Source: Candidatus Saccharimonadota bacterium
GTDB lineage: Bacteria > Patescibacteriota > Microgenomatia > UBA1406 > GWC2-37-13
Direction of reading: 5' to 3'
DNA length: 32,000 bases
Assembly: GCA_001790095.1 (NCBI GenBank)
Contig: MGBH01000001.1
Span: 600,001-632,000 of the forward strand
Within the stretch, counting starts at the first letter, position 1. Each line of letters starts with the position of its first letter. The notes beneath the pieces are model-generated. The model saw only the letters and a program-made list of their open reading frames with translations, searched no databases and was not told the origin of the DNA. This document shows, piece by piece, positions 7,065-27,967 of this stretch. The translations under genes and the position numbers were made by a program.

Positions 7065-9245
7065 TTACTCTTTTCTAAACACCTCTATCAGGTGTCTAAG
7101 AGGGGAGTAGAAGACAGTCAATCTTCCAATTTGAGTAGGTTGGATTATCATCTCAAAGTCTCCTTTTTCAATTGGTATTTCTTTCCCGTTTTGGAAAGCC
7201 ACAAATCCTTTAGGATTCATGATGAGTACAAGTTTCTTTGAGATTTCTTTTTTTGATATTGCAAACTCCACTCTGTTTGGATTAACATATGTCGGCACTG
7301 CCACTGTCTCCTTATCTGTTCCTTCGATGTATCGATATATTGGAGGAGCTGATTCGATTTCATAGTAATAAGTCCCTCCTTCTTTCAAAAGAAGTTCGTA
7401 TTTTTTTAATGGTCGGTCAGATATGATATATCTGATTCCAAGTCGCCCCCAGCGGTCATCGTTCATCGTCACTCTTGAAGTATCTAGTGCGTTGATGTGG
7501 GATGTTTTAGTGGTCTTTGCGAACTCCTCATTCCGTGAGATTATATAGCTATACTCTGATTGATAATTATGTGAGAAGTTTGAAAAATATGTTGCAAGCT
7601 TTTTTGGGACAAATGTGTTATATCCCTGGACAGCATATGTATTGGCAACAGCCGCCCATGAGGTGGGAATAGTCACAAGTGTTTTTTTTAATTTGTCATA
7701 AGATTGCTCTTCATAAAGATCGATCATGGACTTTTCTTTTGAAAAGGGAGGACGAAACATTATGCTGCTCATATAGGTATGAAAACCCGTATAGGGAATC
7801 ACGTCTGAAGTAGATTGTATACGATATGTCTTTGCATCAATTGATTTGGGAAAGCTTGTCTTTACCGAAAGAGCAGAGGCAGGTATAAAATATCCGTGAA
7901 AATAATTTACCAGAAGTCCCTCAATAAATACAAATAGCAGTAAAAAATATATACCGTATTTTTTGTTCATACTCCCGGCATACATCATAAACCCCAACAA
8001 GCCCATAGGTATAAAGCTCAACCCCATAAGTCTTCCGATTGCGCGCACCGTATCAAGAGTAAAAAAGAGGCTAACCGCGCCGTGTTTGAGCATCGCATAT
8101 CCGTTTTGAAAAAGGAGAGGAAATAGAGGAGAGACAAAAAAAACAAAAGCAGTAATTGAAAAAAATATAAGTAACAAATAGCTTTTTCTCCATCTTTCTT
8201 CCACTAATAGAGCAATGCTGTCTTTATATGAGGCAACAATAATCAATATTATTATATGTATGATCACCCATATCTGCCCGGCTCCTCTAAAAAAAGGAAT
8301 ATTTAGTATTCCCAAAGAAAGAAAAATACAGATAGATAAAATAATGACGTAGTATGACGCAATTTTTCTTTTATATATCGTACGGATAAAAAGGAAAACT
8401 AATAATAAAGAAGACAGGATGACTGTGGTAGGTCCGGCATTCCAGCTTGAACCGTTTTGAATCATCCCAAGGTAAAAAGGCAGTATCAGCTGCAGATGCT
8501 GTAGCGGTCGAATCGACCCAATATCAGCATATTCCTTTCCCGCACCAAGTCGGGTCGAGTCCATAACCAAAGGTAGAGAAAAGATATAATACCAGCTCGT
8601 TGAAAAAGCAAGAAGAATAAAAAACAAAACCGTCTTTTTAAGAGATATCTTGTAATGAAAAATAGCTACGAGAAAGCCAAGGATATACCCATACACTACA
8701 AACTGCAAATGTCCCGATATCGTCATAAAAAACCCAACGATAAGTGGCAGCACATATCCGCCTTTTTTTTCTCTTAAAAAGGAAAGAGAGTATAAAAATA
8801 TCCCGTAGTGGGCAATCGTCACAAATATGGTGGGGTTGTTGAGTCTTACAAATCCGCTTCCTGAGAAAAAAAGGATAAAAGTATAAAGTAGCGCAAGCGT
8901 TTTATCTTTAGTTATAGAGCAAAAAAACAAATAAAATCCATATAAGAATATAAATACCGTAATACCCACCCAAACAGCAAACGATAGAGGATAAGGTAGC
9001 GCAAAAAAAAGATTGAACGGGTGGATATTGCCCATCCCCACATCAAATGCAAAAGGTACTCCAAGAAATATATGAGGGTTAAAAAGAGGAAGTATTCCAC
9101 CCGCTAGCCATTTACCCAAAAATATTTTCTGAGCAAGAAATAGGATTATGGTATCTGTTGAAAGATTTACAAAATGATAGTAAAAGCAAGACAGTAGAAT
9201 AGAAAATAATATAAAAGCTATTAAATGGATGTGTTTTCTAGTCAT
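7065..9245 (-). CDS. Large polytopic membrane protein with a C-terminal extracytoplasmic domain, YfhO-like / GT-C-type glycosyltransferase candidate
   Basis: 726 aa. About 460 aa of transmembrane helices are followed by about 260 aa of soluble domain. It overlaps the upstream GT-C gene by 8 nt and follows a soluble GT2. The family call rests on architecture and context. Confidence 0.5.
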   Translation of the reverse strand: MTRKHIHLIAFILFSILLSCFYYHFVNLSTDTIILFLAQKIFLGKWLAGGILPLFNPHIFLGVPFAFDVGMGNIHPFNLFFALPYPLSFAVWVGITVFIFLYGFYLFFCSITKDKTLALLYTFILFFSGSGFVRLNNPTIFVTIAHYGIFLYSLSFLREKKGGYVLPLIVGFFMTISGHLQFVVYGYILGFLVAIFHYKISLKKTVLFFILLAFSTSWYYIFSLPLVMDSTRLGAGKEYADIGSIRPLQHLQLILPFYLGMIQNGSSWNAGPTTVILSSLLLVFLFIRTIYKRKIASYYVIILSICIFLSLGILNIPFFRGAGQIWVIIHIIILIIVASYKDSIALLVEERWRKSYLLLIFFSITAFVFFVSPLFPLLFQNGYAMLKHGAVSLFFTLDTVRAIGRLMGLSFIPMGLLGFMMYAGSMNKKYGIYFLLLFVFIEGLLVNYFHGYFIPASALSVKTSFPKSIDAKTYRIQSTSDVIPYTGFHTYMSSIMFRPPFSKEKSMIDLYEEQSYDKLKKTLVTIPTSWAAVANTYAVQGYNTFVPKKLATYFSNFSHNYQSEYSYIISRNEEFAKTTKTSHINALDTSRVTMNDDRWGRLGIRYIISDRPLKKYELLLKEGGTYYYEIESAPPIYRYIEGTDKETVAVPTYVNPNRVEFAISKKEISKKLVLIMNPKGFVAFQNGKEIPIEKGDFEMIIQPTQIGRLTVFYSPLRHLIEVFRKE

Positions 9246-10755
9246 GATTTATTTTATATACATTTACTAAAGAGACACCGTCTCTTTTAACTTGATATAT
9301 GATCTTTCCGTTCACCCCCCTATTATCCTGAAATCTATCCCAACATATGACATAATCAGCGCCCTTCTTGTTATCAGCCAATCTCATTTTGTTACTGAAA
9401 TGATAGGATGCTGAATACGAGGTTCCACACACATTGATCGTAACAGCTTGAGATGATTTGTTCGCAATATTGTCACGTATCCATAAGGTGGCCTCCCTGT
9501 TTGCAGCACCCCAATAATCAGTTTCAAACTTTCCACTGGCTCCCCTTACCCCTCCAATTAATTCATTAAAGTATACATACTCAAAAGGATGTAGGCGCAC
9601 ATAGCTCATAGCAATCAAAATAAAATTTGCAATCACAATTATTCCAAAAAATAACCCCACTCTTTTATGTTTTTTCAATAGATATATGAGTCCGGTGACA
9701 GAAAGCAGTATAAGCTGCGGGAGAAAATAAAGAAAGTGACGTATCCCGTCATAGATCACTGGTTTTATTAAAATAAACATGAGGATATTTACTCCTAAAG
9801 AAATAAGGAGTAGCTGAACAAGTCTTTCTTTGTGACCTTTTACTATTCCGATGGGAATAAGGGGAATGATGACACAAGGCAAGGTGATCAGAAACCAAAC
9901 AGGAAGATAAAGCCAGGGCAGCTGTTTGGGCAGGAAAAGATTTCCGAAAAATAAAATACTTTTATCCCATCCGTTGTTGCTTGTCATTTTTATAAGATCA
10001 ATAAAATGATTGATCGGATCAGCTCCAAGATAGGGGACTGAAAATACATGGATAAGTAGTCCGATGCATAGGATCAAAAACGTTTCAAAAAACATGTCAA
10101 CCAATATCTTTTTTTTATACCTGATGTTTTTCTGATTAAATATGGACAATAAACTAAAAATAAGAAATACAGGATATATAGTATAACCAACCAATCGGGC
10201 AGATTGTGTCAGCCCAAATGAAATACCAAGTATAAGTATTCTCGCCTTGTCGTTCCACTCTTGAGAAAGAAAAATAAGAGAAAGAGAGAGAAAATACAGG
10301 ACTGCAAACGGTATATCTTTTGGATTAGAGGGGATATCCCCAAAAAACCGAGGAGTAAAAACTAAAAATATGGGTCCTAATAAAGCATAATATATATTCT
10401 TTGTTTCGCTAAGCAACACTTCATAAAGTGCGATAAAGATAAGAGAAACAAATATAAAATTAAGGAGATGATACCGTTCAAAACTTTCCCCGCTGTTAAG
10501 TTGATAAAGAAAAGCGGGATACGTATTGTTGTAATAGATCATTTCATTGCTCCCTCTAGGTATCACAAAATCCTTTTGAAGAGTTTGATCGTTGCCGCGG
10601 ACTTTTATATAGAGAAGCTTTCCTCGTAAATACACATCTCTCTCATCAAACGTAATACCGTATTGTTTATAGGTAAGTAGAGCGAAGATAAAGTAACATA
10701 TGAGAAATATAAAAAGAGGAATCCTTAGTTTTAAGAGAGAGATTGTTCTCTTCAT
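9238..10755 (-). CDS. GT-C fold membrane glycosyltransferase (PMT_2/ArnT-like)
   Basis: 505 aa and polytopic. The first loop, YGITFDERDVYLRG, carries a DE-type acidic motif. A C-terminal soluble domain is present. The start overlaps the GT2 stop by 4 nt. Confidence 0.6.
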   Translation of the reverse strand: MKRTISLLKLRIPLFIFLICYFIFALLTYKQYGITFDERDVYLRGKLLYIKVRGNDQTLQKDFVIPRGSNEMIYYNNTYPAFLYQLNSGESFERYHLLNFIFVSLIFIALYEVLLSETKNIYYALLGPIFLVFTPRFFGDIPSNPKDIPFAVLYFLSLSLIFLSQEWNDKARILILGISFGLTQSARLVGYTIYPVFLIFSLLSIFNQKNIRYKKKILVDMFFETFLILCIGLLIHVFSVPYLGADPINHFIDLIKMTSNNGWDKSILFFGNLFLPKQLPWLYLPVWFLITLPCVIIPLIPIGIVKGHKERLVQLLLISLGVNILMFILIKPVIYDGIRHFLYFLPQLILLSVTGLIYLLKKHKRVGLFFGIIVIANFILIAMSYVRLHPFEYVYFNELIGGVRGASGKFETDYWGAANREATLWIRDNIANKSSQAVTINVCGTSYSASYHFSNKMRLADNKKGADYVICWDRFQDNRGVNGKIIYQVKRDGVSLVNVYKINHD

Positions 10756-11506: not shown

Positions 11507-12667
11507 TTAGGTCTTTTTTAGTTTCACCTGCAGATAAAAAAATACTATCGCAAAGACTCCTGAGGCCAAGAAAAAAGGCATGTCCTTTCCCATTCGAAAA
11601 AAAACTTCTCCTCCTATAATGGGACCAAATATACGACCCAAGCCTCCGGCAGACTGCAAAAATCCAAGTGTTCCGCCATATTCTTCTTTGGGTATATTTT
11701 CCGAAGCAAGAGCTTGTATAGCGGGATTTGCCATACTATTGCCAAGCACAATTAAAAACTGAGTAACAAATAAAAAAGACGCAATCGGGATAAGAGGCAT
11801 CAAGAATAAACCAAAAAATAGAAAGAGACATGAATATTTCAAAAGTTTTTTTTCATGGAACCGTTTTATCAAAATAGGAAGTAGTTGTAACTGGAAAATA
11901 ACCGCAAGTATACCAATATAGGCAAAGAAAAAACCATTTTCCGTTGGACCAAAACCAAATTTCGCCTGTGTCCACAGTGCAAAGTTACCCTGGAGTATTG
12001 AAAAAGCACTGTTGAGAAGAAAGAACACAATAATAAGATATCCAATCGTCTCGCTCATCAGTATTTTCTTCATTTCAACAAACGTAAAGGCAGTTCTTTT
12101 GGTATGGGCAGCTTTTACTACGTTTATCGTCTCCGGCAGAAAAAAATAGGTACACAGGACCGTAACAAGCGATACAAAGACTGCAAAATAAGCAGGGTAA
12201 CTATATCCAAACCGTGCTAAAAATCCGCCCAATGCCGGGCCGAATATAAATCCCATTCCGAAAGCGGCTCCGATCATGCCCATTCCCTTTGCTCTATTTT
12301 CTTTTGTGGTTACATCTGCAATATAGGCCTGAGCTATTGAAATATTCCCACCTGTCAATCCGTCGATAATGCGGGATAAAAAAAGAATAGGTAAACTTGT
12401 TGCCCAACCCAACAGAAGATAACCGACAGCACTACCAAGTTGCGATATAATAAGAAGTTTTTTTCTGCCGAAACGATCAGAAAGCCTGCCTAAAACAGGA
12501 GCGGCCAAAAGCTGGAACAACGAGTAGGTCGCACTAAGAAATCCAATTTGCGCAGGATTAGCAGAAAAGCGCTCGGCTATAAAGGGAAGAAGAGGTAGTA
12601 TGATACCAAAACCTAGTAAGTCGACAAAAACGATAAGAAAAATGGCCAATAGCGGTTTGTTTTTCAT
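11507..12667 (-). CDS. MFS transporter (TetA/multidrug-efflux-like)
   Basis: 386 aa with about 12 helices. MFS motif A, GRLSDRFGRKKLL, sits between TM2 and TM3. Confidence 0.8.
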   Translation of the reverse strand: MKNKPLLAIFLIVFVDLLGFGIILPLLPFIAERFSANPAQIGFLSATYSLFQLLAAPVLGRLSDRFGRKKLLIISQLGSAVGYLLLGWATSLPILFLSRIIDGLTGGNISIAQAYIADVTTKENRAKGMGMIGAAFGMGFIFGPALGGFLARFGYSYPAYFAVFVSLVTVLCTYFFLPETINVVKAAHTKRTAFTFVEMKKILMSETIGYLIIVFFLLNSAFSILQGNFALWTQAKFGFGPTENGFFFAYIGILAVIFQLQLLPILIKRFHEKKLLKYSCLFLFFGLFLMPLIPIASFLFVTQFLIVLGNSMANPAIQALASENIPKEEYGGTLGFLQSAGGLGRIFGPIIGGEVFFRMGKDMPFFLASGVFAIVFFYLQVKLKKT

Positions 12668-14061
12668 AGAGGAAATATCAGTGTAACAGATGTTCCATCT
12701 TCAGGTTTTGAATCTACGATTATCTTAACCTCATACTCATCACAAATCTGCTTAATAAGGCTTAAGCCCAAACCGTATCCTTTTATGGTATTGTGAGTCT
12801 TTTTACCACGGTAGAATCTTTCAAACATCTTGCTCTTTTCTTCTTCCGTCATGCCAATTCCGTGATCTTGAATCGTGATCTGCCGTTTTGCTTCGTTGAT
12901 CTTTATATAGATGGTTGAATCATTTGAAGAATATTTCACTGCATTGGACATAAGATTTGCGAATATCATAATCGCATATTCCTTTGGAACTGGAATTATA
13001 AACCTCGATGATGTCTCATGATGAAGCTCGATTCTTTTTTTGTGCAAACTGTCAATGTATTTATCCATAACAAAACTTAATACATTCTGAAGTATTACTG
13101 ATCCCTGCGGCATCGCTCCTTCTTTAATCCTTGCCAAAAGCAACAATTTTTCAATAAGGTTATTTATCTCCAGAAGATCCTGTTTGATGAGATGAAGATC
13201 GTCTTTGGGCAATGCTCGATCTGTCATCATAACGTCAAGAGAAGTGATCGCGCGGGTAAGCGGAGTTTTGAGCTCATGAGATGCATTACCGATAAACTCC
13301 TTTTGCCGCAATGACATATCGTTAAGTCGTTCCAACATATCGTTAAATTTGTCAGCCAACAATACAAACTCATCGTCAGGATGACCATCAAGGTGAACCT
13401 TTTTTTCCAATCGATTTAAATCTGTTGCTTCAAAAGCACGAACAATCTTTAGAATTGGTTTAAAGGAAGAATTTATCGCGATATATCCTAAGAAAAAACT
13501 TCCCAAAAGCCCGACACCTCCAAGCACGGCAAGAACTACAAATACATTTGTCATCATCGTATCCAATCCCACAAGCGACTTCGCAAGTACAACTGATCCG
13601 ACACGCTGACCCCTAGATTTAAGGGGAGTTATAAAGGATAAATACTGAATATTATTCCAATAAAAATTCTCTTCGTTTACCTTTTCTATTTTGTTGGCGT
13701 TTGCAATGAGCGTATTTAAATTTTCAACTTCTTTGTTATTTTTTATCTGAGATTCAAATGCACCATATGCCCGCATAACTTTGTTTTCTTTGTCTAAAAA
13801 AAGGGCGCTGACTGAATCACTAAAGAGATTTAAGCGTAATGTATCGCCAGCTTTATCCTTTTTAAAAAAAATTCCCGCCTGATCGATACCAATATGTTCT
13901 TCAACTACCTCACCAAGCTCATGAATAAGGTCCTGTCTTAATTGATATACGTATACGTATCTGAAAACACTAATAAAAAGGGTAGCCAATACCACAAGAA
14001 AGAGAAAAAAATACAAAGTAAAAATAAAGATCAGTTTGTGTTTTGCCTTTATGTTTCGCAT
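12664..14061 (-). CDS. Sensor histidine kinase (two TM helices, extracytoplasmic sensor, HAMP, HisKA, HATPase_c)
   Basis: The H-box is NASHELKTPLT and the N-box is NLMSNAVKYS. The G-boxes are QDHGIGM and GYGLGLSL. An approximately 130 aa loop lies between the two hydrophobic segments. Confidence 0.9.
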   Translation of the reverse strand: MRNIKAKHKLIFIFTLYFFLFLVVLATLFISVFRYVYVYQLRQDLIHELGEVVEEHIGIDQAGIFFKKDKAGDTLRLNLFSDSVSALFLDKENKVMRAYGAFESQIKNNKEVENLNTLIANANKIEKVNEENFYWNNIQYLSFITPLKSRGQRVGSVVLAKSLVGLDTMMTNVFVVLAVLGGVGLLGSFFLGYIAINSSFKPILKIVRAFEATDLNRLEKKVHLDGHPDDEFVLLADKFNDMLERLNDMSLRQKEFIGNASHELKTPLTRAITSLDVMMTDRALPKDDLHLIKQDLLEINNLIEKLLLLARIKEGAMPQGSVILQNVLSFVMDKYIDSLHKKRIELHHETSSRFIIPVPKEYAIMIFANLMSNAVKYSSNDSTIYIKINEAKRQITIQDHGIGMTEEEKSKMFERFYRGKKTHNTIKGYGLGLSLIKQICDEYEVKIIVDSKPEDGTSVTLIFPL

Positions 14062-14723
14062 AACATGTATCCTTTATTTATGACGGTTTTTATAAGAGTG
14101 GTTTTATAGGGAACATCTATCTTCATCCTCAAATATCGTATGTGTACATCGACCGTATTTGACAATTCATCAACCCTCTCTCCCCAAACATGTTCAAGTA
14201 GCTCCATCCTGTCAATAACTCTGCATTTGTGTATTATAAGATACTCTAGCAAATCGTATTCCTTTGGTGCTAAACGAACGATATTACCTCTTTGTGTTAC
14301 TGTTCTTTTATTGGTATCAAGGACCAAGTCTTTTACTTCTAAAATGGGTGATGATACGATTCTTGCACTTCGTTTAATAAGTGCCCTTATCCTTGCCAAA
14401 AGTACATCCATCGAAAAGGGTTTAGCAAGATAGTCGTCTGCTCCCTTTTCAAGACCTTCAACAATATCTTCATTCTGACTCTTTGCGGTTAACATGATTA
14501 TGGGAAAGTATTTTTTTTTCATTCTAAGCTCATAACACACTTCAATCCCTTGCTTGTCAGGAAGCATCCAGTCAAGAATAATAAGATCATATACCTGTAT
14601 ATCTACCTGAGAAAGACCATTCTCTGCAGAATGCTCTAAATCTACTACATAATGGTTCTCCTCAAGAATTTTTTTGATGTTTGTAGCTATGCGTACATCA
14701 TCTTCTATGATGAGAATCCTCAT
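14049..14723 (-). CDS. OmpR/PhoB-family response regulator
   Basis: The receiver domain reads MRILIIEDD...DLIILDWMLPD...LTAK. The winged-helix C-terminus reads LAPKEYDLLEYL...VDVHIRYLRMKI. It overlaps the kinase start by 13 nt. Confidence 0.9.
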   Translation of the reverse strand: MRILIIEDDVRIATNIKKILEENHYVVDLEHSAENGLSQVDIQVYDLIILDWMLPDKQGIEVCYELRMKKKYFPIIMLTAKSQNEDIVEGLEKGADDYLAKPFSMDVLLARIRALIKRSARIVSSPILEVKDLVLDTNKRTVTQRGNIVRLAPKEYDLLEYLIIHKCRVIDRMELLEHVWGERVDELSNTVDVHIRYLRMKIDVPYKTTLIKTVINKGYMLCET

Positions 14724-14726
14724 GGG

Positions 14727-15110
14727 TTATTGTATCAAAAACTGTTGTAATTGAGCATAGGCATCGGGTGAGTGGTCTTTACCTTGATCGTCTTGTGTTT
14801 GAAAGGCTTGAGTTGCATCTTTCCCGCAATATTTCTCCAACTCCTGATCGCCACCCGGATGAGATCCAAAGTACGTAGAAACATTATAGATATGCCCCTC
14901 TAAAGCTATCCAACAGTCAGACCTCATATTGTGCATATGCAACTCTCCGAATATGTCCCTTATGGTTGGTACAGTTACCTGCCTCACTTTTCTCTTTACT
15001 ATTGGTGCTTGTTTATTTTGTACCGTCGCAAGTATCAGCAAAACCAAGAAAAAAACAGCAAAGTTAATAATGCTAATTTGAGATAGCTGTCTGAGATAGC
15101 GATTACTCAT
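14727..15110 (-). CDS. Membrane-anchored cytochrome b5-like haem-binding domain protein
   Basis: An N-terminal basic stretch and a hydrophobic helix come first. Then comes DCWIALEGHIYNVSTYFGSHPGGDQELEKYCGKDATQAF...GKDHSPDAY. Both the HPGG histidine and the distal HS histidine of cytochrome b5 are present. The start overlaps the NOX-like stop by 4 nt. Confidence 0.8.
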   Translation of the reverse strand: MSNRYLRQLSQISIINFAVFFLVLLILATVQNKQAPIVKRKVRQVTVPTIRDIFGELHMHNMRSDCWIALEGHIYNVSTYFGSHPGGDQELEKYCGKDATQAFQTQDDQGKDHSPDAYAQLQQFLIQ

Positions 15111-16444
15111 ACCATTTGAAACCTTTCAAATAACACCCTGTTTTCATCAACATCTATCTCCCTAAATTGGTTCTGAAGATTATCGATCATAGTCCCTGGT
15201 CCACATATCTGCACATCATAATTATGATACTTTTCCAAAATTTCAAGCACTTTGTTAACACTGAACCTTCCCTTTTCTGCCGAACACCATTCATAGGCCT
15301 CAATTGATTTCTTTTCACTGATTAATCGTTTTATTTCATCAGAAAAAATGGCTTCTTCTTTTGTGCTAAAGCAATAGAAAAGCAATATCTTTCTTTCTTC
15401 AATAAGCTGTGAGTGGTGCCGTAACATACTTAAAAATGGAGTAACTCCTATACCTCCCACTATCCATACTAATGGCTTTTTCCCCTCAATATATACATCC
15501 CCAAACTTGCCATAAGGTCCTTTCAAATACATTCTGTCTCCAACTCTTAAAAAGGGGAGCTTTACCGTATAGTCCCCAAACATCTTAGCCGTAATCCTTA
15601 TCTCCTTTTCCTCCGGAGCAGAGGAAAAACTGTAAGGATGCTGCTCACTTCCTAACTTTTCATTTGAAAAACTGATATAGGCAAACTGTCCTGGGACAAA
15701 CTCAATTTTTTTGCGAATGGGTTTTGCATAAATATTCACAACATCTAGCACTCGATCTAGTTTTGTAATCTCGTATGTAAAAAGCGGACCGATTATGTCA
15801 TAAAATATTAATATATAGATAAATCCTAAAAAACCCAATATAATCCAACCGATCATCCAAACCCTTAAGGGTAGAAAAACTGCAATATCGCTTGTAATAA
15901 GAAGGGCATGTGTAGCCCCCATAATACCTGCAAACCCCATCGTCGTATGTAGCCCTTTCCACACATGATAGGGGAGTCGGATAAAAACAATAAATAATAA
16001 GCCCGTAATCATGACATATAAAGCAAAAATGCCAAGATTATAGGGTAGAAAACTACCCGGGATCATGTATTGAAGAGCTAAAGATATGTTGGGTAATGCT
16101 TTAACAGCTAAGAGAAGCGGGTGATTGATTAGGAGCACAAATGATACGCTGCCAATGATATGATGCATTCCGTACACCCTATCTAACCCTCCAAAAAAAT
16201 CCTCAACCTTCCTAATACGAGTTGTAAGTATTAAAGATGTCATCATAAGAAGCAGACCTATGAGAGAAAAGATTTGACTCAATGATAAAAGGGGATTATC
16301 TAAAATTTCAGAAAAGGATGTCTTTGAAAAGAACCATAGAATTATAGTTATAAAAACCGAGGCAAAGATGATGTTTTTACCTTTATTAGTTTTCATAAGT
16401 GAATATGCAGCGTCTTGAATGTTTATACTATTAAGACGCTGCAT
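15107..16444 (-). CDS. NOX/FRE-family flavocytochrome: ferric-reductase transmembrane domain fused to an FAD/NAD(P)H-binding dehydrogenase domain
   Basis: His pairs sit in two helices: MHHIIGSVSFVLLINH and LHTTMGFAGIMGATH. By my count they have 13 and 12 intervening residues, the spacing I recall for gp91phox-type bis-haem sites. The FAD motif is HPYSFSS, the NAD(P)H motif is GGIGVTPF and the C-terminal motif is ICGPGTM. Confidence 0.85.
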   Translation of the reverse strand: MQRLNSINIQDAAYSLMKTNKGKNIIFASVFITIILWFFSKTSFSEILDNPLLSLSQIFSLIGLLLMMTSLILTTRIRKVEDFFGGLDRVYGMHHIIGSVSFVLLINHPLLLAVKALPNISLALQYMIPGSFLPYNLGIFALYVMITGLLFIVFIRLPYHVWKGLHTTMGFAGIMGATHALLITSDIAVFLPLRVWMIGWIILGFLGFIYILIFYDIIGPLFTYEITKLDRVLDVVNIYAKPIRKKIEFVPGQFAYISFSNEKLGSEQHPYSFSSAPEEKEIRITAKMFGDYTVKLPFLRVGDRMYLKGPYGKFGDVYIEGKKPLVWIVGGIGVTPFLSMLRHHSQLIEERKILLFYCFSTKEEAIFSDEIKRLISEKKSIEAYEWCSAEKGRFSVNKVLEILEKYHNYDVQICGPGTMIDNLQNQFREIDVDENRVLFERFQMV

Positions 16445-16465
16445 ATATAAGTTTTACGAATTAAT

Positions 16466-17071
16466 TTATGAGATGCTTAACTGTATAATATTCCTCATAA
16501 ATGATTCCATACGTTCTTTTTCTTCTTCATTATGATCTTCATCTCTTTCTTCATCGCGGTCTTTCTCATGTTCCTCATCATCCCTCTTATCATTTTTTTT
16601 AGAAGAAGATGAGTTTGTACTTGAACTACTACTCGTCGTCCCCCCTGATGTAACTAGATACTGTTGCATGCGATTAAGATTTGTACCATGTTTACCTTGA
16701 TAGTCTGTAGTCATATCGATCCCGCAGGTAAAAATATCCCCACCTGAATGATTGCCTTTAAGCGATGTCACATCATACTGATTACCAAACAATGTGACAA
16801 TACACCTTGTATCGGTATCTCTTGATATACTACTGACTGAGGAGCTTGAGCTTTGTATACTTGAAGACACTGAACTTGAGCCTTCTGATTTTGAAACCTC
16901 CTCTTCTTCGATGTCTTGCCTAATCTCAGGTACCTTAAGGCTACCTGTATTTAGATTATTTGCTACCTTAGCCATACCTAGAGCGGTGGTTGAAACCGTT
17001 GCTCCGGTAAGCACAGTAACTCCTATCACCGAAATGAGATTTTTAGTTAAAAAAGCTAAAAGTTTTTGCAT
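16466..17071 (-). CDS. Membrane-anchored cytochrome b5-like domain protein with Ser-rich linkers and an acidic/His-rich tail
   Basis: It has an N-terminal hydrophobic anchor. The b5-like core reads CIVTLFGNQYDVTSLKGNHSGGDIFTCGIDMTTDYQGKHG, with HSGG in place of HPGG. The core is flanked by poly-Ser tracts. The tail reads KKNDKRDDEEHEKDRDEERDEDHNEEEKER. Confidence 0.65.
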   Translation of the reverse strand: MQKLLAFLTKNLISVIGVTVLTGATVSTTALGMAKVANNLNTGSLKVPEIRQDIEEEEVSKSEGSSSVSSSIQSSSSSVSSISRDTDTRCIVTLFGNQYDVTSLKGNHSGGDIFTCGIDMTTDYQGKHGTNLNRMQQYLVTSGGTTSSSSSTNSSSSKKNDKRDDEEHEKDRDEERDEDHNEEEKERMESFMRNIIQLSIS

Positions 17072-17133
17072 ATTTATAAAGGAATAGAAAATGATAATAT
17101 AATCATTTTATAGACCAATAGATTAAGAACAGG

Positions 17134-17589
17134 TTAAGAAACAGACAAAAGATCTATATCTCTTAATACTTCCTCTGCATGATTCAATACGTTTACGTGT
17201 TGATACTCTTTTTTTATCGTTCCATCAGGCCCTATGATATATGTTTTGCGAAGAACACCCTCAAAACCTTTACCCAACACCGTTTTTATTCCCCATGCAT
17301 CATATGCCTTTATCGTCTCCTTTGATTCATCACTTAAAAGAGGAAAAGTTATCACGTGTTTTTTCGCAAATTCTCTGTGCGAATCAACAGAATCCTTTGA
17401 TATGCCAAGCACAACAACGTTTCTTTTCTTTAGTTCTTCACTTTTATCTCTAAATCCGCATGCTTCAGCGATACATCCCGGCGTGTTGTCTTTGGGATAA
17501 AAATAGAGAACAATCCATTTGCCTTTATAATCTGAAAGGGTATGAACCTTACCCATTTGATCTGGTAAAGAAAAGGTGGGAGCCTTCAT
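17134..17589 (-). CDS. bcp: Peroxiredoxin, Bcp/PrxQ type (AhpC/TSA family)
   Basis: 151 aa. WIVLYFYPKDNTPGCIAEACGFRD contains the peroxidatic Cys in a PxxxTxxC-like context, plus a second Cys five residues later. Confidence 0.85.
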   Translation of the reverse strand: MKAPTFSLPDQMGKVHTLSDYKGKWIVLYFYPKDNTPGCIAEACGFRDKSEELKKRNVVVLGISKDSVDSHREFAKKHVITFPLLSDESKETIKAYDAWGIKTVLGKGFEGVLRKTYIIGPDGTIKKEYQHVNVLNHAEEVLRDIDLLSVS

Positions 17590-21232: not shown

Positions 21233-22843
21233 TTATTCTTGCAATTTGATAATTTTTTTATACACCTCAAGGTCATTGTGTTTGTACACCAAGAAAAAGT
21301 CTTGGTCAGATCTAAGCTTGTCGTATGCGGTTGCCATGATCTCTTTTTGCCACCCCTTTTTTGCCTCGTTAATAGATACTATAACATAATCCGCTTGTAC
21401 ATAATAATCAGAAAAATTGTAAAAATACCGGCGTGATGTAAAATAAGGAGCAAAGTGGCCGGTTGATGAGATCTTTATATATTCATCGCTTAGTTCCTTA
21501 CTCAATTTTTTTATAGCAGGTAATGTTTGAGGTACGTGCGTAAAAGCATATATGTCTTTTTTTTTCGCATACGGCAAGGGTCCTTCAAGATATGATACAA
21601 AAAGCAAACCTATTAAAAATAGAGTGCTCAATATAACAAAAATTCTATCTTTACCAAACTTTATTTGTATATTTTTTTGGGAAGAAATAAATGAATATAT
21701 AGAATGAAATCCATGTATGGCAGAAATAAATACAAAAGGAGTGATGACAGCAGTGTAGTGATAAATTATGTTTCTCATATTAAAACTTGTTGAAAGGAGA
21801 TTTATTGCAAATTCAGGAAATACAATCAACAAATGTGGCAAAGAAAAAACCGACAAAAATCCAACCGGACTTAAAAGCTGATAAAAATAAATAAGTGTGT
21901 CTTTGCGATATATGTATCTTAAAAAGTGAGTAAGATCGCTGTAATAATCTAGGGCAAAATGCCCACCCTGTGGTCGGGCAAGCGGAATAATGATCTTCAT
22001 CGAGATAAAAAACCATACTACGCTTACTCCAATCACGATGAGCGGAAACCACGCCTTAAGATGTTTTTTCTTCAGTGAGACAATATACTCTGATATTTCT
22101 TTCTTCTTTGGTAAAAATAAATCTGAATTTATGGTCTTATAAAGTATAAAAAAACCAAAGAAACTAGTAGTAAGACCCATATGCTCCTTGGTTAAAAGAC
22201 TTAAAAAAAGAAAGAATAAACTCCATGCATATTTTTTTTTACTCCAGAAATAATACATGAAAAGAAGAAATGAGGTAGAAAGAGTAACCGCATGAAACTC
22301 ATAAATGACAGCCCTTTGAAGCGGAGGATAAAAAAGATAGGAGAAGGCAAAAATGACACTTATCAATCTCTGCTGACTATTTTTTTCAAATACTTTTAAC
22401 GAGATATTAAAAACTGCCCATGCACCAAGTCCTACCACTACTGCCTGAAGGACTAAAAGAGTAGATGGCCCATCATGCAAAAAATAAAGCGGGGAAATGA
22501 GCGCAAGAAACAAATCATTATGGATTGCCATACGCTTTACCTGCTCAAATCCATGAGGGTTTGTCATCTCGAGAAACCGTGAAAAATCAAATGTCTGAAT
22601 AGCTCTATAGGTGTTATATACCGTCTGATGCATGATGCCCAGATCAAAATATGAAGCAACCAGTCTTTGATAACGCAGTACGGTATAAACCGAAAAATAA
22701 ATACTAAATATCAAAATACCCGCCCAAACTAGTATATTTGATACCTGTTTTCCTGTTTTTTTTTGTCTAATCATTCTCTTGTTTTTTACTTCTAAGTTAT
22801 TTGTTTGCTCTTTTTTATTTGTTTCCCGAATGGTATTTCTCAT
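21233..22843 (-). CDS. DUF2079-family polytopic membrane protein (GT-C-like candidate)
   Basis: 536 aa. SYFDLGIMHQTVYNTY follows the first helix, which I recall as the DUF2079 signature region. Many helices follow. The alternative start M24 at 22774 would remove the 29-nt overlap with xer. Confidence 0.6.
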   Translation of the reverse strand: MRNTIRETNKKEQTNNLEVKNKRMIRQKKTGKQVSNILVWAGILIFSIYFSVYTVLRYQRLVASYFDLGIMHQTVYNTYRAIQTFDFSRFLEMTNPHGFEQVKRMAIHNDLFLALISPLYFLHDGPSTLLVLQAVVVGLGAWAVFNISLKVFEKNSQQRLISVIFAFSYLFYPPLQRAVIYEFHAVTLSTSFLLFMYYFWSKKKYAWSLFFLFLSLLTKEHMGLTTSFFGFFILYKTINSDLFLPKKKEISEYIVSLKKKHLKAWFPLIVIGVSVVWFFISMKIIIPLARPQGGHFALDYYSDLTHFLRYIYRKDTLIYFYQLLSPVGFLSVFSLPHLLIVFPEFAINLLSTSFNMRNIIYHYTAVITPFVFISAIHGFHSIYSFISSQKNIQIKFGKDRIFVILSTLFLIGLLFVSYLEGPLPYAKKKDIYAFTHVPQTLPAIKKLSKELSDEYIKISSTGHFAPYFTSRRYFYNFSDYYVQADYVIVSINEAKKGWQKEIMATAYDKLRSDQDFFLVYKHNDLEVYKKIIKLQE

Positions 22844-23750
22844 GAACCTCTCTTAATCTGGCGTTTGTCACATGGGTATAGATTTGGGTCGTTGCAATGT
22901 TTTTGTGCCCAAGCATCTCCTGGACACTTCGCAGATCTGCTCCGTGTGATAACAAGTCCGTAGCAAAACTGTGACGCAAAGCATGAGGTCCTATCTTATC
23001 TAAAATCCCTGATTTTTTTCTGTATTTATCTACCATCCGTTCGATCGAACGCACTGAAAGCCGTCTTTTTTGATCCGTAAGATTGTCATCACTTGGTCCG
23101 CTGTAGCGGATAAAAAGAGATGCGTATGGATCTTTGCGCATCGAAAGATATTTTGTTAACCATTCCTTTGCTTTTTGCGATATGAATACAACCCGCATCT
23201 TACCTCCTTTTCCCAATACCCCAAACTCTCCCGCATCCAAATTTACTTTTTCGCGGTTTAATGCGGCAAGTTCTGAGACACGAAGACCGGTTGAGAATAG
23301 TACTTCAAGTATGGTGCGATCACGTACCCCTGGTTCATCTGTTGTATCAACACTCCTAAATAATCTCTCCAGATCATTTTCAGACAAAAATTTGATATTA
23401 CGATCGCGCAGTTTTCCAAGCTCAATCATGTCAGGGGAGAGAACAGGAAGTTTTTGTTTGACAAGATAGCGAAAAAAAGAACGAAGCGCCACCAAAAAAT
23501 AGTTCTGAGTCTGCCGTTTGAGATTGCCCTTAAATGGATTTTTGTAGCTGTGTGAAAGATAGAGCCGGAAGTTTCGGATCATGTTTTCATCGATTTTTTC
23601 TACGTCATAGTCCTGCAGGTTAGTCTGTGCAAGAACCCACGATTGAAAAAATTGCAAGTAATACCCGTACATCTTGACAGTCTTGAGAGAAAGGTTGCGA
23701 TCAAGCTCACTATACTCAAGAAAGCGTAAGATTCCCTCTTTTATTCCCAT
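22815..23750 (-). CDS. xerC: Tyrosine recombinase, XerC/XerD type
   Basis: 311 aa with an N-terminal SAM-like domain. The catalytic region reads GLRVSELAAL...HALRHSFATDLLSHGADLRSVQEMLGHKNIATTQIYTHV, giving the R..HxxR..H..Y residues. Confidence 0.85.
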   Translation of the reverse strand: MGIKEGILRFLEYSELDRNLSLKTVKMYGYYLQFFQSWVLAQTNLQDYDVEKIDENMIRNFRLYLSHSYKNPFKGNLKRQTQNYFLVALRSFFRYLVKQKLPVLSPDMIELGKLRDRNIKFLSENDLERLFRSVDTTDEPGVRDRTILEVLFSTGLRVSELAALNREKVNLDAGEFGVLGKGGKMRVVFISQKAKEWLTKYLSMRKDPYASLFIRYSGPSDDNLTDQKRRLSVRSIERMVDKYRKKSGILDKIGPHALRHSFATDLLSHGADLRSVQEMLGHKNIATTQIYTHVTNARLREVHEKYHSGNK

Positions 23751-23837
23751 ATATCCATATTAAACGACGTTGAAGAAAAAAACAAGTTAATTGAGGCGTT
23801 TACACTGTAGAAGTAAATCAAAAACTTTTATTTTCAG

Positions 23838-23920
23838 TGCCGGGGAGAGGACTTGAACCTCCACGATCTCACGATCACAGGTTCCTAAAACCTGCGTGTA
23901 TGCCATTTCACCACCCCGGC
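23838..23920 (-). tRNA. tRNA-Leu (anticodon UAG), class II with long variable arm
   Basis: The reverse complement is GCCGGGGTGGTGAAATGGCATACACGCAGGTTTTAGGAACCTGTGATCGTGAGATCGTGGAGGTTCAAGTCCTCTCCCCGGCA. The anticodon stem is CAGGT/ACCTG with loop TTTAGGA. Confidence 0.9.
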
Positions 23921-26524: not shown

Positions 26525-26791
26525 ATGTATTATGTTTATGTACTTGAAAGCAAAAAAGACCGCAAACATTATATTGGATTCACTGAAGACCTCAATCGAA
26601 GAATAATAGAACATACAAAGGGTGAGGTTGAAAGTACAAAAAAAAGAAGGCCATTAGAGTTAGTTTATTATGAGGCATATAAATATGAAAAAGACGCAAG
26701 GAGACAAGAATTGTTATATAAAACTGGCCAAGGAAGAAGAATATTGCAAAAAAGATTAAGAAATAAATTCGATCTTGGAGAAGTCGCCTAG
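26525..26791 (+). CDS. Small stand-alone GIY-YIG nuclease-domain protein (UPF0213/COG2827-like)
   Basis: MYYVYVLESKKDRKHYIGFTEDLNRRIIEH carries the GIY and YIG beta-hairpin motifs. Conserved R and E residues follow downstream. The track start at 26501 is a TTG inside the repeat, and the domain begins at the ATG at 26525. The last five codons and the TAG stop lie inside the tRNA-Ser gene. Confidence 0.8.
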   Translation: MYYVYVLESKKDRKHYIGFTEDLNRRIIEHTKGEVESTKKRRPLELVYYEAYKYEKDARRQELLYKTGQGRRILQKRLRNKFDLGEVA

Positions 26792-27948: not shown

Positions 27949-27967
27949 GCAGATATTTTATCACTAG

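What the first reader, a model, noticed from the sequence alone, without database searches (positions are those of the whole stretch)
14727..17589. NOX/FRE-type flavocytochrome sandwiched between two membrane-anchored cytochrome b5-like proteins, led by a peroxiredoxin: a candidate trans-membrane electron-export module
Seen in sequence: four consecutive minus-strand genes are separated by gaps of 62 nt and 21 nt, and the last pair overlaps by 4 nt.
- bcp runs 17589-17134.
- b5-like A runs 17071-16466.
- The six-helix ferric-reductase domain fused to an FAD/NAD(P)H domain runs 16444-15107.
- b5-like B runs 15110-14727.
The string continues directly into an OmpR-type regulator, a histidine kinase and an MFS transporter.

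The reductase keeps two His pairs, with 13 and 12 intervening residues by my count. It also keeps HPYSFSS, GGIGVTPF and CGPG. Both small proteins have an N-terminal anchor helix followed by a b5 fold with both axial His positions (HPGG...DHS and HSGG...KHG). The positive-inside rule would therefore place the b5 domains outside the cell.

Established knowledge: NOX/FRE enzymes move electrons from cytoplasmic NAD(P)H across the membrane. Bacterial NOX homologues such as SpNOX are stand-alone enzymes as I recall them.

Inference: the b5 proteins are dedicated extracytoplasmic electron acceptors or donors. Possible roles are Fe(III) or other metal reduction, repair of oxidised envelope components, or controlled ROS production with Bcp as self-protection. 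I know of no characterised bacterial NOX-b5 pairing.
Basis: partly seen in the sequence, partly recalled or inferred. Interest (0 to 1): 0.8.

Follow-up and report, generated by a model that had tools for sequence, protein, structure and literature searches.

The report
NOX-like reductase with tethered b5 partners
A tiny symbiotic (CPR) bacterium encodes a membrane enzyme of the NADPH-oxidase type flanked by two small membrane-anchored haem (cytochrome b5-like) proteins. The set most likely carries electrons from cell-internal NAD(P)H to the outside; it is widespread in these bacteria, was noted in a 2021 preprint and has never been tested.

Summary
In detail: gene coordinates, spacings and motifs are all as stated. 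The window comes from Candidatus Roizmanbacteria RIFOXYB2_FULL_38_10.

**What the proteins are**
- The 445-aa protein is an SpNOX-type flavocytochrome (full-length match to SpNOX, E 2.5e-32; AF2 model TM 0.83). All four haem-ligand His are conserved and the outer loops are short.
- b5B is a classic cytochrome b5.
- b5A misses the Pfam cut-off, but it belongs to a large truncated b5 subfamily and models as a b5 fold.

**Conservation**
- A b5-like gene sits next to the NOX-like gene in 37 of 80 species-level loci, often with a 4-nt overlap.
- Nearly all are CPR bacteria. One is a verified DPANN archaeon.
- The response regulator and histidine kinase recur. bcp, MntP and MFS do not.

**Prior art:** Tamarit et al. 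(bioRxiv 2021) already described this CPR "pFre / cytb5-like / two-component" operon, with function unknown.

**Best reading (about 0.6):** NAD(P)H→FAD→two haems→tethered extracytoplasmic b5 domains→unknown acceptor. An almost invariant Cys pair supports the outside location. The positive-inside rule does not support it for b5B here.

Verdict: a new member of a known but uncharacterised kind, of moderate interest.

The parts
15107..16444 (-). SpNOX-type flavocytochrome (the 'pFre' of Tamarit et al.). It has six TM helices with two bis-His haem sites (H94/H166 inner, H108/H179 outer, by alignment to SpNOX H69/H129 and H82/H142) and a cytoplasmic FAD/NAD(P)H dehydrogenase domain (HPYSFSS, GGIGVTPF, CGPG, C-terminal F442).
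   Evidence: - phmmer against PDB: SpNOX 8qt6/8qq7, E 2.5e-32, query residues 17-442.
- Pfam: FAD_binding_8, NAD_binding_1, NAD_binding_6.
- Family invariants.
- AF2 pLDDT 87; TM helices 21-40, 51-73, 87-116, 133-154, 159-182, 191-218.
- Foldseek top hits are SpNOX (TMt 0.83), then DUOX1, NOX2 and NOX5.
14727..15110 (-). b5B, a classic cytochrome b5 domain (residues about 56-124; HPGG and DHS axial His; Cys66/Cys95 pair) behind an N-terminal TM helix (about 12-30). Its start overlaps the NOX stop by 4 nt.
   Evidence: - Pfam Cyt-b5 5.2e-18.
- PDB hits 3lf5 (1.4e-12) and E. vacuolata b558 1cxy (6e-11).
- The downstream slot is filled by a b5-like gene in 36 of 80 loci.
- Flank charges are 2+ on the N side and 5+ on the C side.
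16466..17071 (-). b5A, built in this order: N-terminal TM anchor, Ser-rich linker, N-terminally truncated 'mini' b5 domain (residues about 88-140; RC...YDVT...HSGGDIFTCG...KHG), Ser-rich linker, strongly acidic C-terminal tail. It probably corresponds to one of the 'cytb5-like' (CBLA/CBLB) types of Tamarit et al.
   Evidence: - Pfam Cyt-b5 is only 14.5-17.3 bits, below the cut-off.
- 112 of 120 subfamily members hit PF00173.
- Cys13, His31 and Cys39 (alignment numbering) are invariant and His51 is at least 90% conserved.
- AF2 pLDDT 84; every listed (top-50) PDB hit is a b5-fold domain, mostly cytochrome b5 itself (probability 0.96-1.0, TMq about 0.66).
- Orthologues sit upstream of NOX in L001, L081, L082, L007, L008 and L085.
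14049..14723 (-). OmpR/PhoB-family response regulator, 3 nt after b5B. It is a recurrent member of the module.
   Evidence: - Pfam Response_reg 1.5e-28 and Trans_reg_C 3.4e-23.
- Orthologues (E 1e-60 to 1e-91) lie directly downstream of the NOX-b5 genes in L001, L002, L007, L008, L081 and L085.
- Also reported by Tamarit et al..
12664..14061 (-). Membrane sensor histidine kinase (two TM segments, HAMP, HisKA, HATPase). It overlaps the RR gene by 13 nt.
   Evidence: - Pfam HisKA, HATPase_c and HAMP.
- Orthologues follow the RR in L002, L007, L008, L081 and L085.
17134..17589 (-). Bcp/PrxQ-type thiol peroxidase with no signal sequence. It is a co-directional upstream neighbour (62-nt gap) and not a conserved module member.
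   Evidence: - Pfam AhpC-TSA 6.4e-41; NCBIfam PRK09437 144.4 bits against a cut-off of 140.
- Found next to the module only in the syntenic relative L082/L083.
11507..12667 (-). Tet(A)-like MFS transporter. It overlaps the HK stop by 4 nt, so it is probably co-transcribed here, but it is not a conserved module member.
   Evidence: - Pfam MFS_1 2.5e-74.
- The only orthologue among 85 loci is in L082, where it directly follows b5B and there is no two-component system.

Best explanation
This is a conserved CPR/DPANN membrane redox module built around an SpNOX-type flavocytochrome.

**Proposed electron path**
1. Cytoplasmic NAD(P)H reduces FAD in the C-terminal dehydrogenase domain.
2. Electrons pass one at a time through the inner haem (H94/H166) and the outer haem (H108/H179) across the membrane.
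3. They leave from the exposed outer haem to cytochrome b5 haem domains. These are held at the outer face by single N-terminal anchor helices and flexible Ser/Thr/Pro-rich tethers. They are b5B (classic b5) and b5A (a truncated b5 with an acidic tail).
4. The b5 domains pass the electrons to a terminal acceptor that is not identified. Candidates are Fe(III) or another metal, O2, or a host or envelope component.

This would give a non-respiring fermenter an outlet for NAD(P)H. Expression is probably controlled by the adjacent OmpR-type two-component system.

**Status of each step**
- Shown: the identities, folds, ligand conservation and gene linkage.
- Inferred by homology: the direction and path inside the NOX-like protein.
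- Inferred and unproven: the outside location of the b5 domains and electron transfer from NOX to b5.
- Unknown: the terminal acceptor.
For: **NOX identity and orientation**
- Full-length SpNOX homology, invariant haem-ligand His and an AF2/Foldseek match to SpNOX at TMt 0.83.
- The outer loops are only about 10, 16 and 8 residues, so there is no cap over the distal haem. This is the feature that lets SpNOX reduce cytochrome c directly and that led its authors to suggest acceptors other than O2 (PMC5676040; PMC11031084).

**b5 identity**.

**Functional linkage**
- A b5-like gene lies immediately downstream in 36 of 80 species-level loci and adjacent in 37. At least 15 show a 4-nt ATGA overlap, across many CPR phyla.
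- The pair also occurs in a verified archaeal contig, L032.
- The relatives L081, L082, L084 and L085 keep b5-NOX-b5.

**Outside location**
- Among 61 NOX-linked b5 domains the Cys pair is present in 60 and 59. That is better than the haem ligands (52 and 58).
- The pair is present in the E. vacuolata b558 sequence (1cxy; I recall this protein as periplasmic) and absent from bovine microsomal (cytoplasm-facing) b5.
- N-termini are short, MK(K)-type and signal-anchor-like, followed by low-complexity linkers.
- Classic b5 partners have net charge N>C in 24 of 30 cases.
- In DPANN loci the same downstream slot holds a small anchored peptide ending in ...TGAS or ...TRAS, with ApbE upstream (Pfam 1.8e-43). 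This fits the known extracytosolic flavinylation logic (PMC8238504).

**Possible docking site**: the outer-loop motif H179-x3-I-x-S-D-x-S has D186 in 43 of 43 b5-linked NOX proteins against 8 of 13 CPR-like NOX proteins without an adjacent b5.

**Thermodynamics (general knowledge)**: NOX haems are low-potential, about -225 to -265 mV in NOX2, and b5 is near 0 mV. Transfer from NOX to b5 is therefore downhill.
Against: - There is no experimental datum for any member.
- In this window b5B has 5 K/R just after its helix and 2 before it. Taken alone, the positive-inside rule would put its haem domain in the cytoplasm.
- The charge rule is uninformative for the b5A type, at 5 against 5.
- The disulfide is inferred from conservation plus my recollection of the 1CXY paper. 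It is not measured, and the models gave no coordinates.
- I could not run a complex prediction.
- About half of the NOX-like loci, including some 13 CPR or CPR-like ones, have no adjacent b5. The enzyme therefore does not strictly need one nearby.
- One upstream b5A-type protein (L085) has lost both His, so some paralogues cannot be haem relays.
- The loop-E correlation is confounded by phylogeny.
- CPR bacteria are thought to lack haem synthesis (my knowledge), so haem loading is unexplained.
Confidence: 0.6

Rival explanations
1. Haem or iron acquisition device. The tethered b5-like proteins act mainly as extracellular haem binders or chaperones for a haem-auxotrophic symbiont. The NOX-like protein reduces the bound Fe(III)-haem, or Fe(III) captured by the acidic tail of b5A, to trigger release and uptake. 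This is a one-shot use rather than catalytic relay.
For: - Tamarit et al. speculate along these lines for the Tyr-ligated cytb5MY paralogue.
- Related operons carry cytb5MY immediately upstream of NOX.
- Metal or porphyrin genes lie nearby in single loci: ZIP in L084 and L064, TspO in L085.
- The conserved poly-acidic tail on upstream b5A-type proteins could bind cations.
- Méheust et al. link some NOX-like 'MsrQ-like' systems to iron assimilation through VIT1.
Against: - This window has no cytb5MY (tblastn best E 0.52).
- No haem or iron transporter lies in the operon.
- Both b5 proteins keep bis-His ligation, which holds haem in both redox states and is typical of electron carriers.
- The ZIP and TspO associations occur in only one or two loci each.
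Confidence: 0.15
2. Stand-alone O2-reducing NADPH oxidase, as SpNOX behaves in vitro. It would consume O2 or make superoxide at the cell surface. The b5 proteins would be accessory (stabilising, modulating or scavenging), and Bcp or SOD would give self-protection.
For: - SpNOX makes superoxide constitutively in vitro (PMC5676040).
- A thiol peroxidase lies upstream here and in L082, and an Fe/Mn-SOD lies upstream in L084.
- From my own knowledge of the Rifle sample naming, not a tool result: the source MAG's name (RIFOXY...) points to oxygen-amended groundwater.
Against: - Antioxidant neighbours are not conserved. Bcp occurs in none of the 80 scanned loci, and SOD in 1 of 85.
- The eukaryotic O2-site His and Arg are not conserved in SpNOX. 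This protein has Leu at H108+4, by direct reading of the sequence.
- This idea does not explain why haem-ligand-competent b5 genes are translationally coupled to NOX in dozens of lineages.
- It is not exclusive of the main model, because O2 could be the final acceptor after b5.
Confidence: 0.12
3. Cytoplasm-facing b5, at least for b5B. The dehydrogenase domain would act like a cytochrome b5 reductase and feed a membrane-anchored cytoplasmic b5, which would serve some lipid- or sterol-modifying enzyme as in eukaryotes.
For: - b5B here and its Roizmanbacteria orthologues have more K/R after the anchor helix than before it: 5 against 2, 4 against 2 and 3 against 2.
- FNR-type domains reduce b5 in eukaryotes (established knowledge; weak PDB hits to b5 reductases).
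Against: - The near-invariant Cys pair is more conserved than the haem ligands.
- The N-termini look like signal anchors, and the charge bias across the family points the other way, 24 against 3.
- No desaturase or P450 appears in any of the 85 neighbourhoods.
- It leaves the strictly conserved two-haem transmembrane domain without a role.
Confidence: 0.08

Closest known systems
CPR 'cytb5MY / pFre / cytb5-like (CBLA, CBLB) / two-component' operon (Tamarit, ..., Ettema, Cahill; bioRxiv 10.1101/2021.11.17.468889)
   Same: - It has the same gene set logic: a ferric-reductase-domain flavoprotein flanked by TM-anchored cytb5-like genes and followed by an OmpR-type RR and an HK, in CPR bacteria.
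- The authors counted PF01794 in 1427 of 7645 CPR genomes, 185 of them with PF00173 within 10 kb.
- The loci I recovered (L002, L006, L007, L008, L084, L085) match their 'ancestral' layout.
   Different: - This window lacks the Tyr-ligated cytb5MY gene and has a classic b5 in the downstream slot.
- The preprint treats pFre as a flavin-reductase-like 'ferric reductase'. It gives no topology, disulfide or SpNOX comparison and leaves the function unknown.
- It reports the pairing as CPR-only, whereas I find it in a verified DPANN archaeal contig (L032).
SpNOX (Streptococcus pneumoniae NADPH oxidase; PDB 8qq7, 8qt6)
   Same: - Same full-length architecture, haem ligands, FAD and NAD(P)H motifs, short outer loops and exposed distal haem.
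- It lacks the eukaryotic O2-site residues.
   Different: - Only about 25% identity.
- No partner protein is reported for SpNOX and its physiological acceptor is unknown. Here, candidate acceptors are encoded on both sides.
'MsrQ-like' flavinylation-associated systems (Méheust et al. 2021, eLife, PMC8238504) and E. coli MsrPQ
   Same: A ferric-reductase-domain membrane protein, often fused to an NAD-binding domain, passes cytosolic electrons to a dedicated extracytosolic redox protein encoded next door. The DPANN loci with ApbE are of this type.
   Different: - The carrier here is a non-covalent haem b5 domain. It is not an ApbE-flavinylated FMN-binding protein or a molybdoenzyme.
- No ApbE was found among the window's ORFs of at least 110 aa.
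Ectothiorhodospira vacuolata cytochrome b558 (PDB 1cxy), a bacterial soluble b5 that I recall as periplasmic
   Same: It has the b5 fold with bis-His ligation and the same two Cys positions (DCW and xCG) as the CPR b5 domains.
   Different: - It is soluble rather than membrane-tethered, and it is not linked to a NOX-like gene.
- That the two Cys form a disulfide is my recollection of the 1999 paper. I could not verify it here.
Eukaryotic NADH-cytochrome b5 reductase / cytochrome b5 and Ncb5or
   Same: An FNR-superfamily flavoprotein is paired with a b5 haem domain. b5B's best PDB hit is the Ncb5or b5 domain (3lf5).
   Different: The eukaryotic systems work entirely on the cytoplasmic side and have no transmembrane di-haem domain.

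Membership tests
NOX/FRE flavocytochromes (ferric-reductase domain + FNR-type dehydrogenase; SpNOX-like) | Six transmembrane helices followed by a cytoplasmic FAD/NAD(P)H domain in one chain | tested here: met
   The AF2 model has six long helices between residues 21 and 218, then a β/α domain. Foldseek matches full-length SpNOX at TMt 0.83-0.84.
NOX/FRE flavocytochromes (ferric-reductase domain + FNR-type dehydrogenase; SpNOX-like) | Two His pairs on TM3 and TM5, with 13 and 12 intervening residues | tested here: met
   The pairs are H94/H108 and H166/H179. They are invariant or at least 90% conserved in alignment A1 and align to the SpNOX ligand positions.
NOX/FRE flavocytochromes (ferric-reductase domain + FNR-type dehydrogenase; SpNOX-like) | FAD motif HPF[ST]-like, NAD(P)H motifs GGIG[VI]TP and CGP, and a C-terminal aromatic residue | tested here: met
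   HPYSFSS, GGIGVTPF and CGPG are present, and F442 is invariant. Pfam gives FAD_binding_8, NAD_binding_1 and NAD_binding_6.
NOX/FRE flavocytochromes (ferric-reductase domain + FNR-type dehydrogenase; SpNOX-like) | Match to the Pfam Ferric_reduct model (PF01794) | tested here: not met
   There is no hit at E<=0.1 for this protein. Most homologues from 64% identity downwards do carry PF01794, so this is a sensitivity failure of the model on this sequence.
NOX/FRE flavocytochromes (ferric-reductase domain + FNR-type dehydrogenase; SpNOX-like) | NAD(P)H-dependent reduction of O2 or Fe(III) across the membrane | not testable with these tools
   This needs purified or reconstituted protein.
Cytochrome b5 (Pfam PF00173) | Profile match above the gathering score | tested here: met
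   b5B scores 65.3 bits against a cut-off of 23.7.
Cytochrome b5 (Pfam PF00173) | Profile match above the gathering score (b5A) | tested here: not met
   b5A scores 14.5 bits as the whole protein and 17.3 bits as the domain alone, against 23.7. Even so, 112 of 120 subfamily members match at E<=0.01, with a best value of 1.4e-10.
Cytochrome b5 (Pfam PF00173) | b5 fold with both axial His in place | tested here: met
   - b5A: AF2 pLDDT 84, and every listed (top-50) Foldseek hit is a b5-fold domain, mostly cytochrome b5 itself.
- His31 is invariant and His51 is at least 90% conserved.
- b5A lacks the N-terminal strand and helix of the canonical fold.
Cytochrome b5 (Pfam PF00173) | Binds haem b | not testable with these tools
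   This needs spectroscopy on expressed protein.
CPR pFre/cytb5-like/two-component operon (Tamarit et al. 2021) | A ferric-reductase-domain gene adjacent to TM-anchored cytb5-like genes in a CPR genome | tested here: met
   (source is Candidatus Roizmanbacteria).
CPR pFre/cytb5-like/two-component operon (Tamarit et al. 2021) | An adjacent two-component system | tested here: met
   The RR and HK follow directly. Their orthologues hold the same position in six other loci.
CPR pFre/cytb5-like/two-component operon (Tamarit et al. 2021) | Presence of the Tyr-ligated MAPR-like cytb5MY gene | tested here: not met
   tblastn of three cytb5MY proteins against the window gives a best E of 0.52. The preprint itself counts 164 further genomes with pFre and PF00173 that lie outside the cytb5MY-containing set it described.
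MsrQ-like flavinylation-associated extracytosolic electron-transfer systems (Méheust et al. 2021) | ApbE and an FMN-binding or flavinylated substrate gene in the cluster | tested here: not met
   No ApbE or FMN_bind was found among the window ORFs of at least 110 aa. The feature is met in the DPANN relatives L010, L039, L048 and L057.
Bcp/PrxQ thiol peroxidase | NCBIfam equivalog score above the cut-off | tested here: met
   PRK09437 scores 144.4 bits against 140, and AhpC-TSA gives 6.4e-41.

The most novel reading that the evidence does not exclude
SpNOX-type enzymes in CPR bacteria and DPANN archaea may be the core of a lineage-wide, NAD(P)H-driven extracellular electron-export system. Its physiological acceptors would be dedicated carriers tethered to the cell surface: b5 haem domains in CPR and some DPANN, and an ApbE-flavinylated peptide in other DPANN. 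This would give these non-respiring episymbionts their main route to reoxidise NAD(P)H or to reduce metals or host-surface substrates. It would also provide the first natural protein partner for a bacterial NOX.
Probability: 0.4. Interest if true: 0.75.

Novelty: new member of a known kind. Interest (0 to 1): 0.47.

Why it matters
**For the NOX field.** The physiological acceptor of prokaryotic NOX enzymes such as SpNOX and CsNOX is an open question. The authors of the SpNOX structure explicitly suggest acceptors other than O2. A partner encoded next door and translationally coupled gives a directly testable candidate.

**For CPR/DPANN biology.** These organisms lack respiratory chains, and how they balance redox is unclear (PMC8080830). 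A conserved, regulated transmembrane NAD(P)H-to-surface electron path would be a real piece of their physiology. It may also bear on how they interact with their hosts.

**Limit on novelty.** The gene association itself has been in a preprint since 2021, so the value lies in the mechanistic reading and its testability rather than in discovery of the locus.

Tried and rejected
- **Searching with the b5A domain alone.** A 69-aa query found nothing because of the word index, and one capped search was lost. Searching with a nine-sequence alignment worked.
- **Promoter and terminator scans** across 11.3-18.4 kb gave counts at shuffle level. They say nothing about operon boundaries.
- **The positive-inside rule as a topology test** is inconclusive. 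It points the wrong way for b5B here and is balanced for the b5A type.
- **bcp, MntP and MFS as module members:** rejected, because they recur only in one syntenic relative.
- **SOD, ZIP, TspO and cupin as recurrent neighbours:** rejected, with one or two loci each.
- **Confirming the E. vacuolata b558 disulfide from the literature:** the paper is not held and the searches were empty or irrelevant. That point remains my recollection.
- **Pfam on the large Saccharibacteria proteins with C-terminal b5-like domains** gave no informative extracellular domains. The only finding was DUF4352 neighbours.
- **Complex modelling of NOX with b5** was not possible.
- **The loop-E motif comparison** is kept only as suggestive, because it is confounded by phylogeny.
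- **Chance adjacency:** rejected outright on the conservation data.

Full report
**1. Observation**

| Gene | Coordinates | Length |
|---|---|---|
| bcp | 17134-17589 | 151 aa |
| b5A | 16466-17071 | 201 aa |
| NOX-like | 15107-16444 | 445 aa |
| b5B | 14727-15110 | 127 aa |

- The gaps are 62 nt and 21 nt, and the last pair overlaps by 4 nt.
- The string continues just as tightly. A response regulator (14049-14723) follows after a 3-nt gap. A histidine kinase (12664-14061) overlaps it by 13 nt. An MFS transporter (11507-12667) overlaps the kinase by 4 nt.
- All quoted motifs are present.
- An identical protein in the database is named as coming from Candidatus Roizmanbacteria bacterium RIFOXYB2_FULL_38_10, a CPR/Patescibacteria MAG.

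**2. The central protein**

- Pfam finds FAD_binding_8, NAD_binding_1 and NAD_binding_6 but, unexpectedly, not Ferric_reduct.
- phmmer against PDB sequences aligns residues 17-442 to full-length SpNOX (8qt6, 8qq7) at E 2.5e-32, including the membrane domain.
- Most homologues from 64% identity downwards carry PF01794.
- In a 21-sequence alignment H94, H108 and H179 are invariant and H166 is at least 90% conserved. So are the FAD and NAD(P)H motifs and the C-terminal F442.
- An AF2 model (pLDDT 87, pTM 0.81) has six long helices and outer loops of only about 10, 16 and 8 residues.
- Its best structural matches are the three SpNOX entries (TMt 0.83-0.84), followed by DUOX1, NOX2 and NOX5.
- It is therefore an SpNOX-type flavocytochrome with an uncapped distal haem.
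- The SpNOX literature reports that the enzyme reduces cytochrome c directly and lacks the eukaryotic O2-site His and Arg. [quoted passage not shown]

**3. The two small proteins**

b5B:
- It is a textbook cytochrome b5 domain (Pfam 5e-18).
- Its PDB hits include the Ncb5or b5 domain and E. vacuolata b558.

b5A:
- It falls below the Pfam threshold.
- An alignment of b5A-type domains from related loci shows two invariant Cys and two invariant His.
- A profile search returned 216 relatives, nearly all unnamed small CPR proteins.
- Of 120 relatives, 112 hit PF00173 individually.
- An AF2 model of the domain (pLDDT 84, core above 90) returns only b5-fold domains, mostly cytochrome b5 itself, as its listed PDB matches.
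- b5A is therefore a truncated b5 that lacks the first strand and helix.
- It has a Ser-rich tether and, in the upstream-type proteins of several lineages, a strongly acidic C-terminal tail whose role is unexplained.

**4. Conservation of the neighbourhood**

I scanned one genome per GTDB species with the family alignment and obtained 80 loci. I then searched their ORFs with an iteratively built b5 HMM.

- A b5-like gene lies immediately downstream of the NOX-like gene in 36 loci and adjacent in 37. At least 15 have a 4-nt overlap.
- These span Roizman-, Wirth-, Collier-, Magasanikii-, Peri-, Azam-, Nomura-, Buchanan- and Staskawiczbacteria, Paceibacterota and many Saccharibacteria. Some records labelled 'uncultured Gammaproteobacteria' or 'Pseudomonadales' have CPR-like gene content, and I do not trust those labels.
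- None was found next to the homologues in Thermoplasmatales, Desulfovibrionales, Rhodobacterales, Bacteroidota or Actinomycetota.
- Two Pacearchaeota loci have the pair. L032 is certainly archaeal, with ribosomal protein S6e and an aIF5B-like gene within 5 kb.

Close relatives looked up individually give these layouts:

| Locus | Gene order |
|---|---|
| L081 | b5A-NOX-b5B-RR-HK |
| L082 | MntP/Bcp/b5A-NOX-b5B-MFS |
| L084 | SOD/cytb5MY-NOX-b5A-type |
| L085 | TspO/cupin/cytb5MY/b5A-type-NOX-b5A-type-RR-HK |

- Orthologous RR/HK pairs recur directly downstream in six loci.
- Bcp, MntP and MFS recur only in L082/L083, which is syntenic with the window over the whole region.
- bcp is therefore a neighbour, not a module component.

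**5. Prior art**

Tamarit et al. (bioRxiv 2021) described this cluster in CPR.
- It consists of a putative ferric reductase (pFre), the MAPR-like Tyr-ligated cytb5MY, two 'cytb5-like' types (CBLA and CBLB) and a two-component system.
- The authors state that PF01794 occurs in 1427 of 7645 CPR genomes, 185 of them with PF00173 within 10 kb.
- They did not see the pairing outside CPR.
- They describe the function as an "unknown CPR-specific function".
- They did not recognise the SpNOX relationship, and they did not discuss topology or a disulfide.

The window is a member of this kind. It lacks cytb5MY and has a classic b5 in the downstream slot.

Méheust et al. 2021 describe the conceptually closest characterised logic. 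In their 'MsrQ-like' systems a ferric-reductase-domain protein, often fused to an NAD-binding domain, feeds an extracytosolic ApbE-flavinylated protein.

**6. Where are the b5 domains?**

It has 2 K/R before the helix and 5 after it (KxxxxxKRKxR), and the Roizmanbacteria orthologues are similar.

Across the family the charge rule is only moderately helpful:
- classic b5 partners have net charge N>C in 24 of 30 cases and the reverse in 3;
- b5A-type partners split 5 against 5.

Stronger evidence comes from elsewhere.
- Among 61 NOX-linked b5 domains, the two Cys are present in 60 and 59. The two axial His are present in only 52 and 58.
- The same Cys pair occurs in the E. vacuolata b558 sequence, a protein I recall as periplasmic, and is absent from bovine microsomal b5.
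- A structural disulfide implies an extracytoplasmic location. That b558 has this disulfide is my recollection and could not be verified here.
- The N-termini are short, MK(K)-type and signal-anchor-like, followed by S/T/P-rich linkers.
- In four DPANN loci the same downstream slot holds a small anchored peptide ending in ...TGAS or ...TRAS, with an ApbE gene (Pfam 1.8e-43) overlapping the NOX start. ApbE-dependent flavinylation is known as an extracytosolic process.
- An outer-loop motif next to the distal haem ligand (H179-x3-I-x-S-D-x-S) has D186 in 43 of 43 b5-linked NOX proteins, against 8 of 13 CPR-like NOX proteins without an adjacent b5. This is suggestive of a docking site but is confounded by phylogeny.

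**7. Mechanism**

The best-supported model, at about 0.6, runs as follows.
1. Cytoplasmic NAD(P)H reduces FAD.
2. Electrons pass through the inner and outer haems of the NOX-like protein.
3. They move on to the tethered extracytoplasmic b5A and b5B haems. This step is downhill by general knowledge of NOX and b5 potentials.
4. They reach an unidentified terminal acceptor.

The module would be under two-component control. Identities, folds, ligands and linkage are shown. The intramolecular path is inferred by homology. The b5 location and the NOX→b5 transfer are inferred. The acceptor is unknown.

Rivals:
- a haem or iron acquisition device (0.15);
- a plain O2-reducing NOX with accessory b5 proteins (0.12, and not exclusive of the main model);
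- a cytoplasm-facing b5 served by the dehydrogenase domain (0.08).

Chance adjacency is excluded.

**8. Verdict**

The core idea is right and the conservation test is passed. The bcp link and the charge argument fail, and the pairing is not unreported.
- Novelty: a new member of a known, uncharacterised kind.
- Interest is moderate at about 0.47. The module offers a concrete candidate for the unknown physiological acceptor of bacterial NOX enzymes and a possible redox outlet for non-respiring CPR/DPANN symbionts. However, the locus type is already in the literature and nothing here is experimentally anchored.

Noticed in passing
L010:5037-7415, L039:5028-7607, L048:5132-7658, L057:5159-7652: In four DPANN archaeal loci the NOX-like gene is preceded by an ApbE gene that overlaps its start (Pfam ApbE 1.8e-43 for L010). 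It is followed, with a 4-nt overlap, by a small membrane-anchored P/T/A-rich protein (84-139 aa) whose extreme C-terminus is ...RTTGAS or ...RRTRAS, which resembles a flavinylation motif. A different tethered redox carrier appears to occupy the slot that b5 fills in CPR.
   Followed up: partly
window 16466-16600 (b5A C-terminus); L001:5245-5979, L081:6264-6974, L007:4731-5609, L008:4949-5608, L085:5319-5984: Upstream-type b5A proteins in several lineages end in a conserved poly-acidic tail, with 12-30 D/E in the last 70 residues. In Roizmanbacteria this is followed by a short amphipathic segment. Downstream-type b5A proteins have no tail. The function is unknown; possibilities are cation capture or docking to the basic juxtamembrane patch of b5B.
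   Followed up: partly
L085:5319-5984: One upstream b5A-type protein has lost both axial His (...TTPNGQGKNGDLF...KYGTN) but keeps the Cys pair and the acidic tail. Some paralogues are therefore probably not haem carriers.
   Followed up: no
L002:337-699, L006:5645-6004, L007:5610-5975, L008:5611-6000, L084:5666-6004, L085:4929-5261: A third, MAPR-like b5 type (FYxxGGxYHxLAGRDSS, with Tyr instead of His; the 'cytb5MY' of Tamarit et al.) sits immediately upstream of NOX in seven loci. It is absent from this window.
   Followed up: yes
L035:7296-8210, L037:7182-8231, L070:7179-8264, L007:4731-5609: Some NOX-linked partners carry two tandem b5 domains on one anchored chain. Saccharibacteria also have proteins of about 820 aa that end in a divergent b5-like domain lacking HPGG, followed by DUF4352 genes (for example L054:9136-11625 and 8137-8682).
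   Followed up: partly
L032:5884-7661: An SpNOX-like gene and a classic b5 gene, overlapping by 4 nt, lie on a 486-kb Pacearchaeota contig with archaeal markers nearby (ribosomal protein S6e, aIF5B-like). The pairing is therefore not restricted to CPR bacteria as previously stated.
   Followed up: yes
window 26777-32000: A prophage-like or integrated-element block lies next to tRNA-Ser (26777-26865). It contains a serine recombinase (27968-29320), a terminase large subunit-like gene (29332-30807), an HTH protein (30779-31213) and a DNA methylase (31206-31970). GC dips to 0.31-0.34 at 27-29 kb.
   Followed up: partly
window 22815-23920: A XerC/phage-integrase-family tyrosine recombinase (22815-23750) lies directly beside tRNA-Leu (23837-23920, minus strand).
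   Followed up: no
window 7065-10755: Two large multi-pass membrane proteins (726 and 505 aa) have no Pfam match. They are embedded in envelope-glycan genes (GT2, PMT_2, DUF2079, EamA, LytR, epimerases). Proteins of matching size and position, also without a Pfam match, occur in relative L082 (513 and 724 aa).
   Followed up: no
window 15107-16444: Pfam's Ferric_reduct model (PF01794) misses this clearly NOX-type membrane domain, and it misses several close homologues too (P0001, P0005, P0014, P0065). Censuses based on PF01794 will undercount this family.
   Followed up: partly
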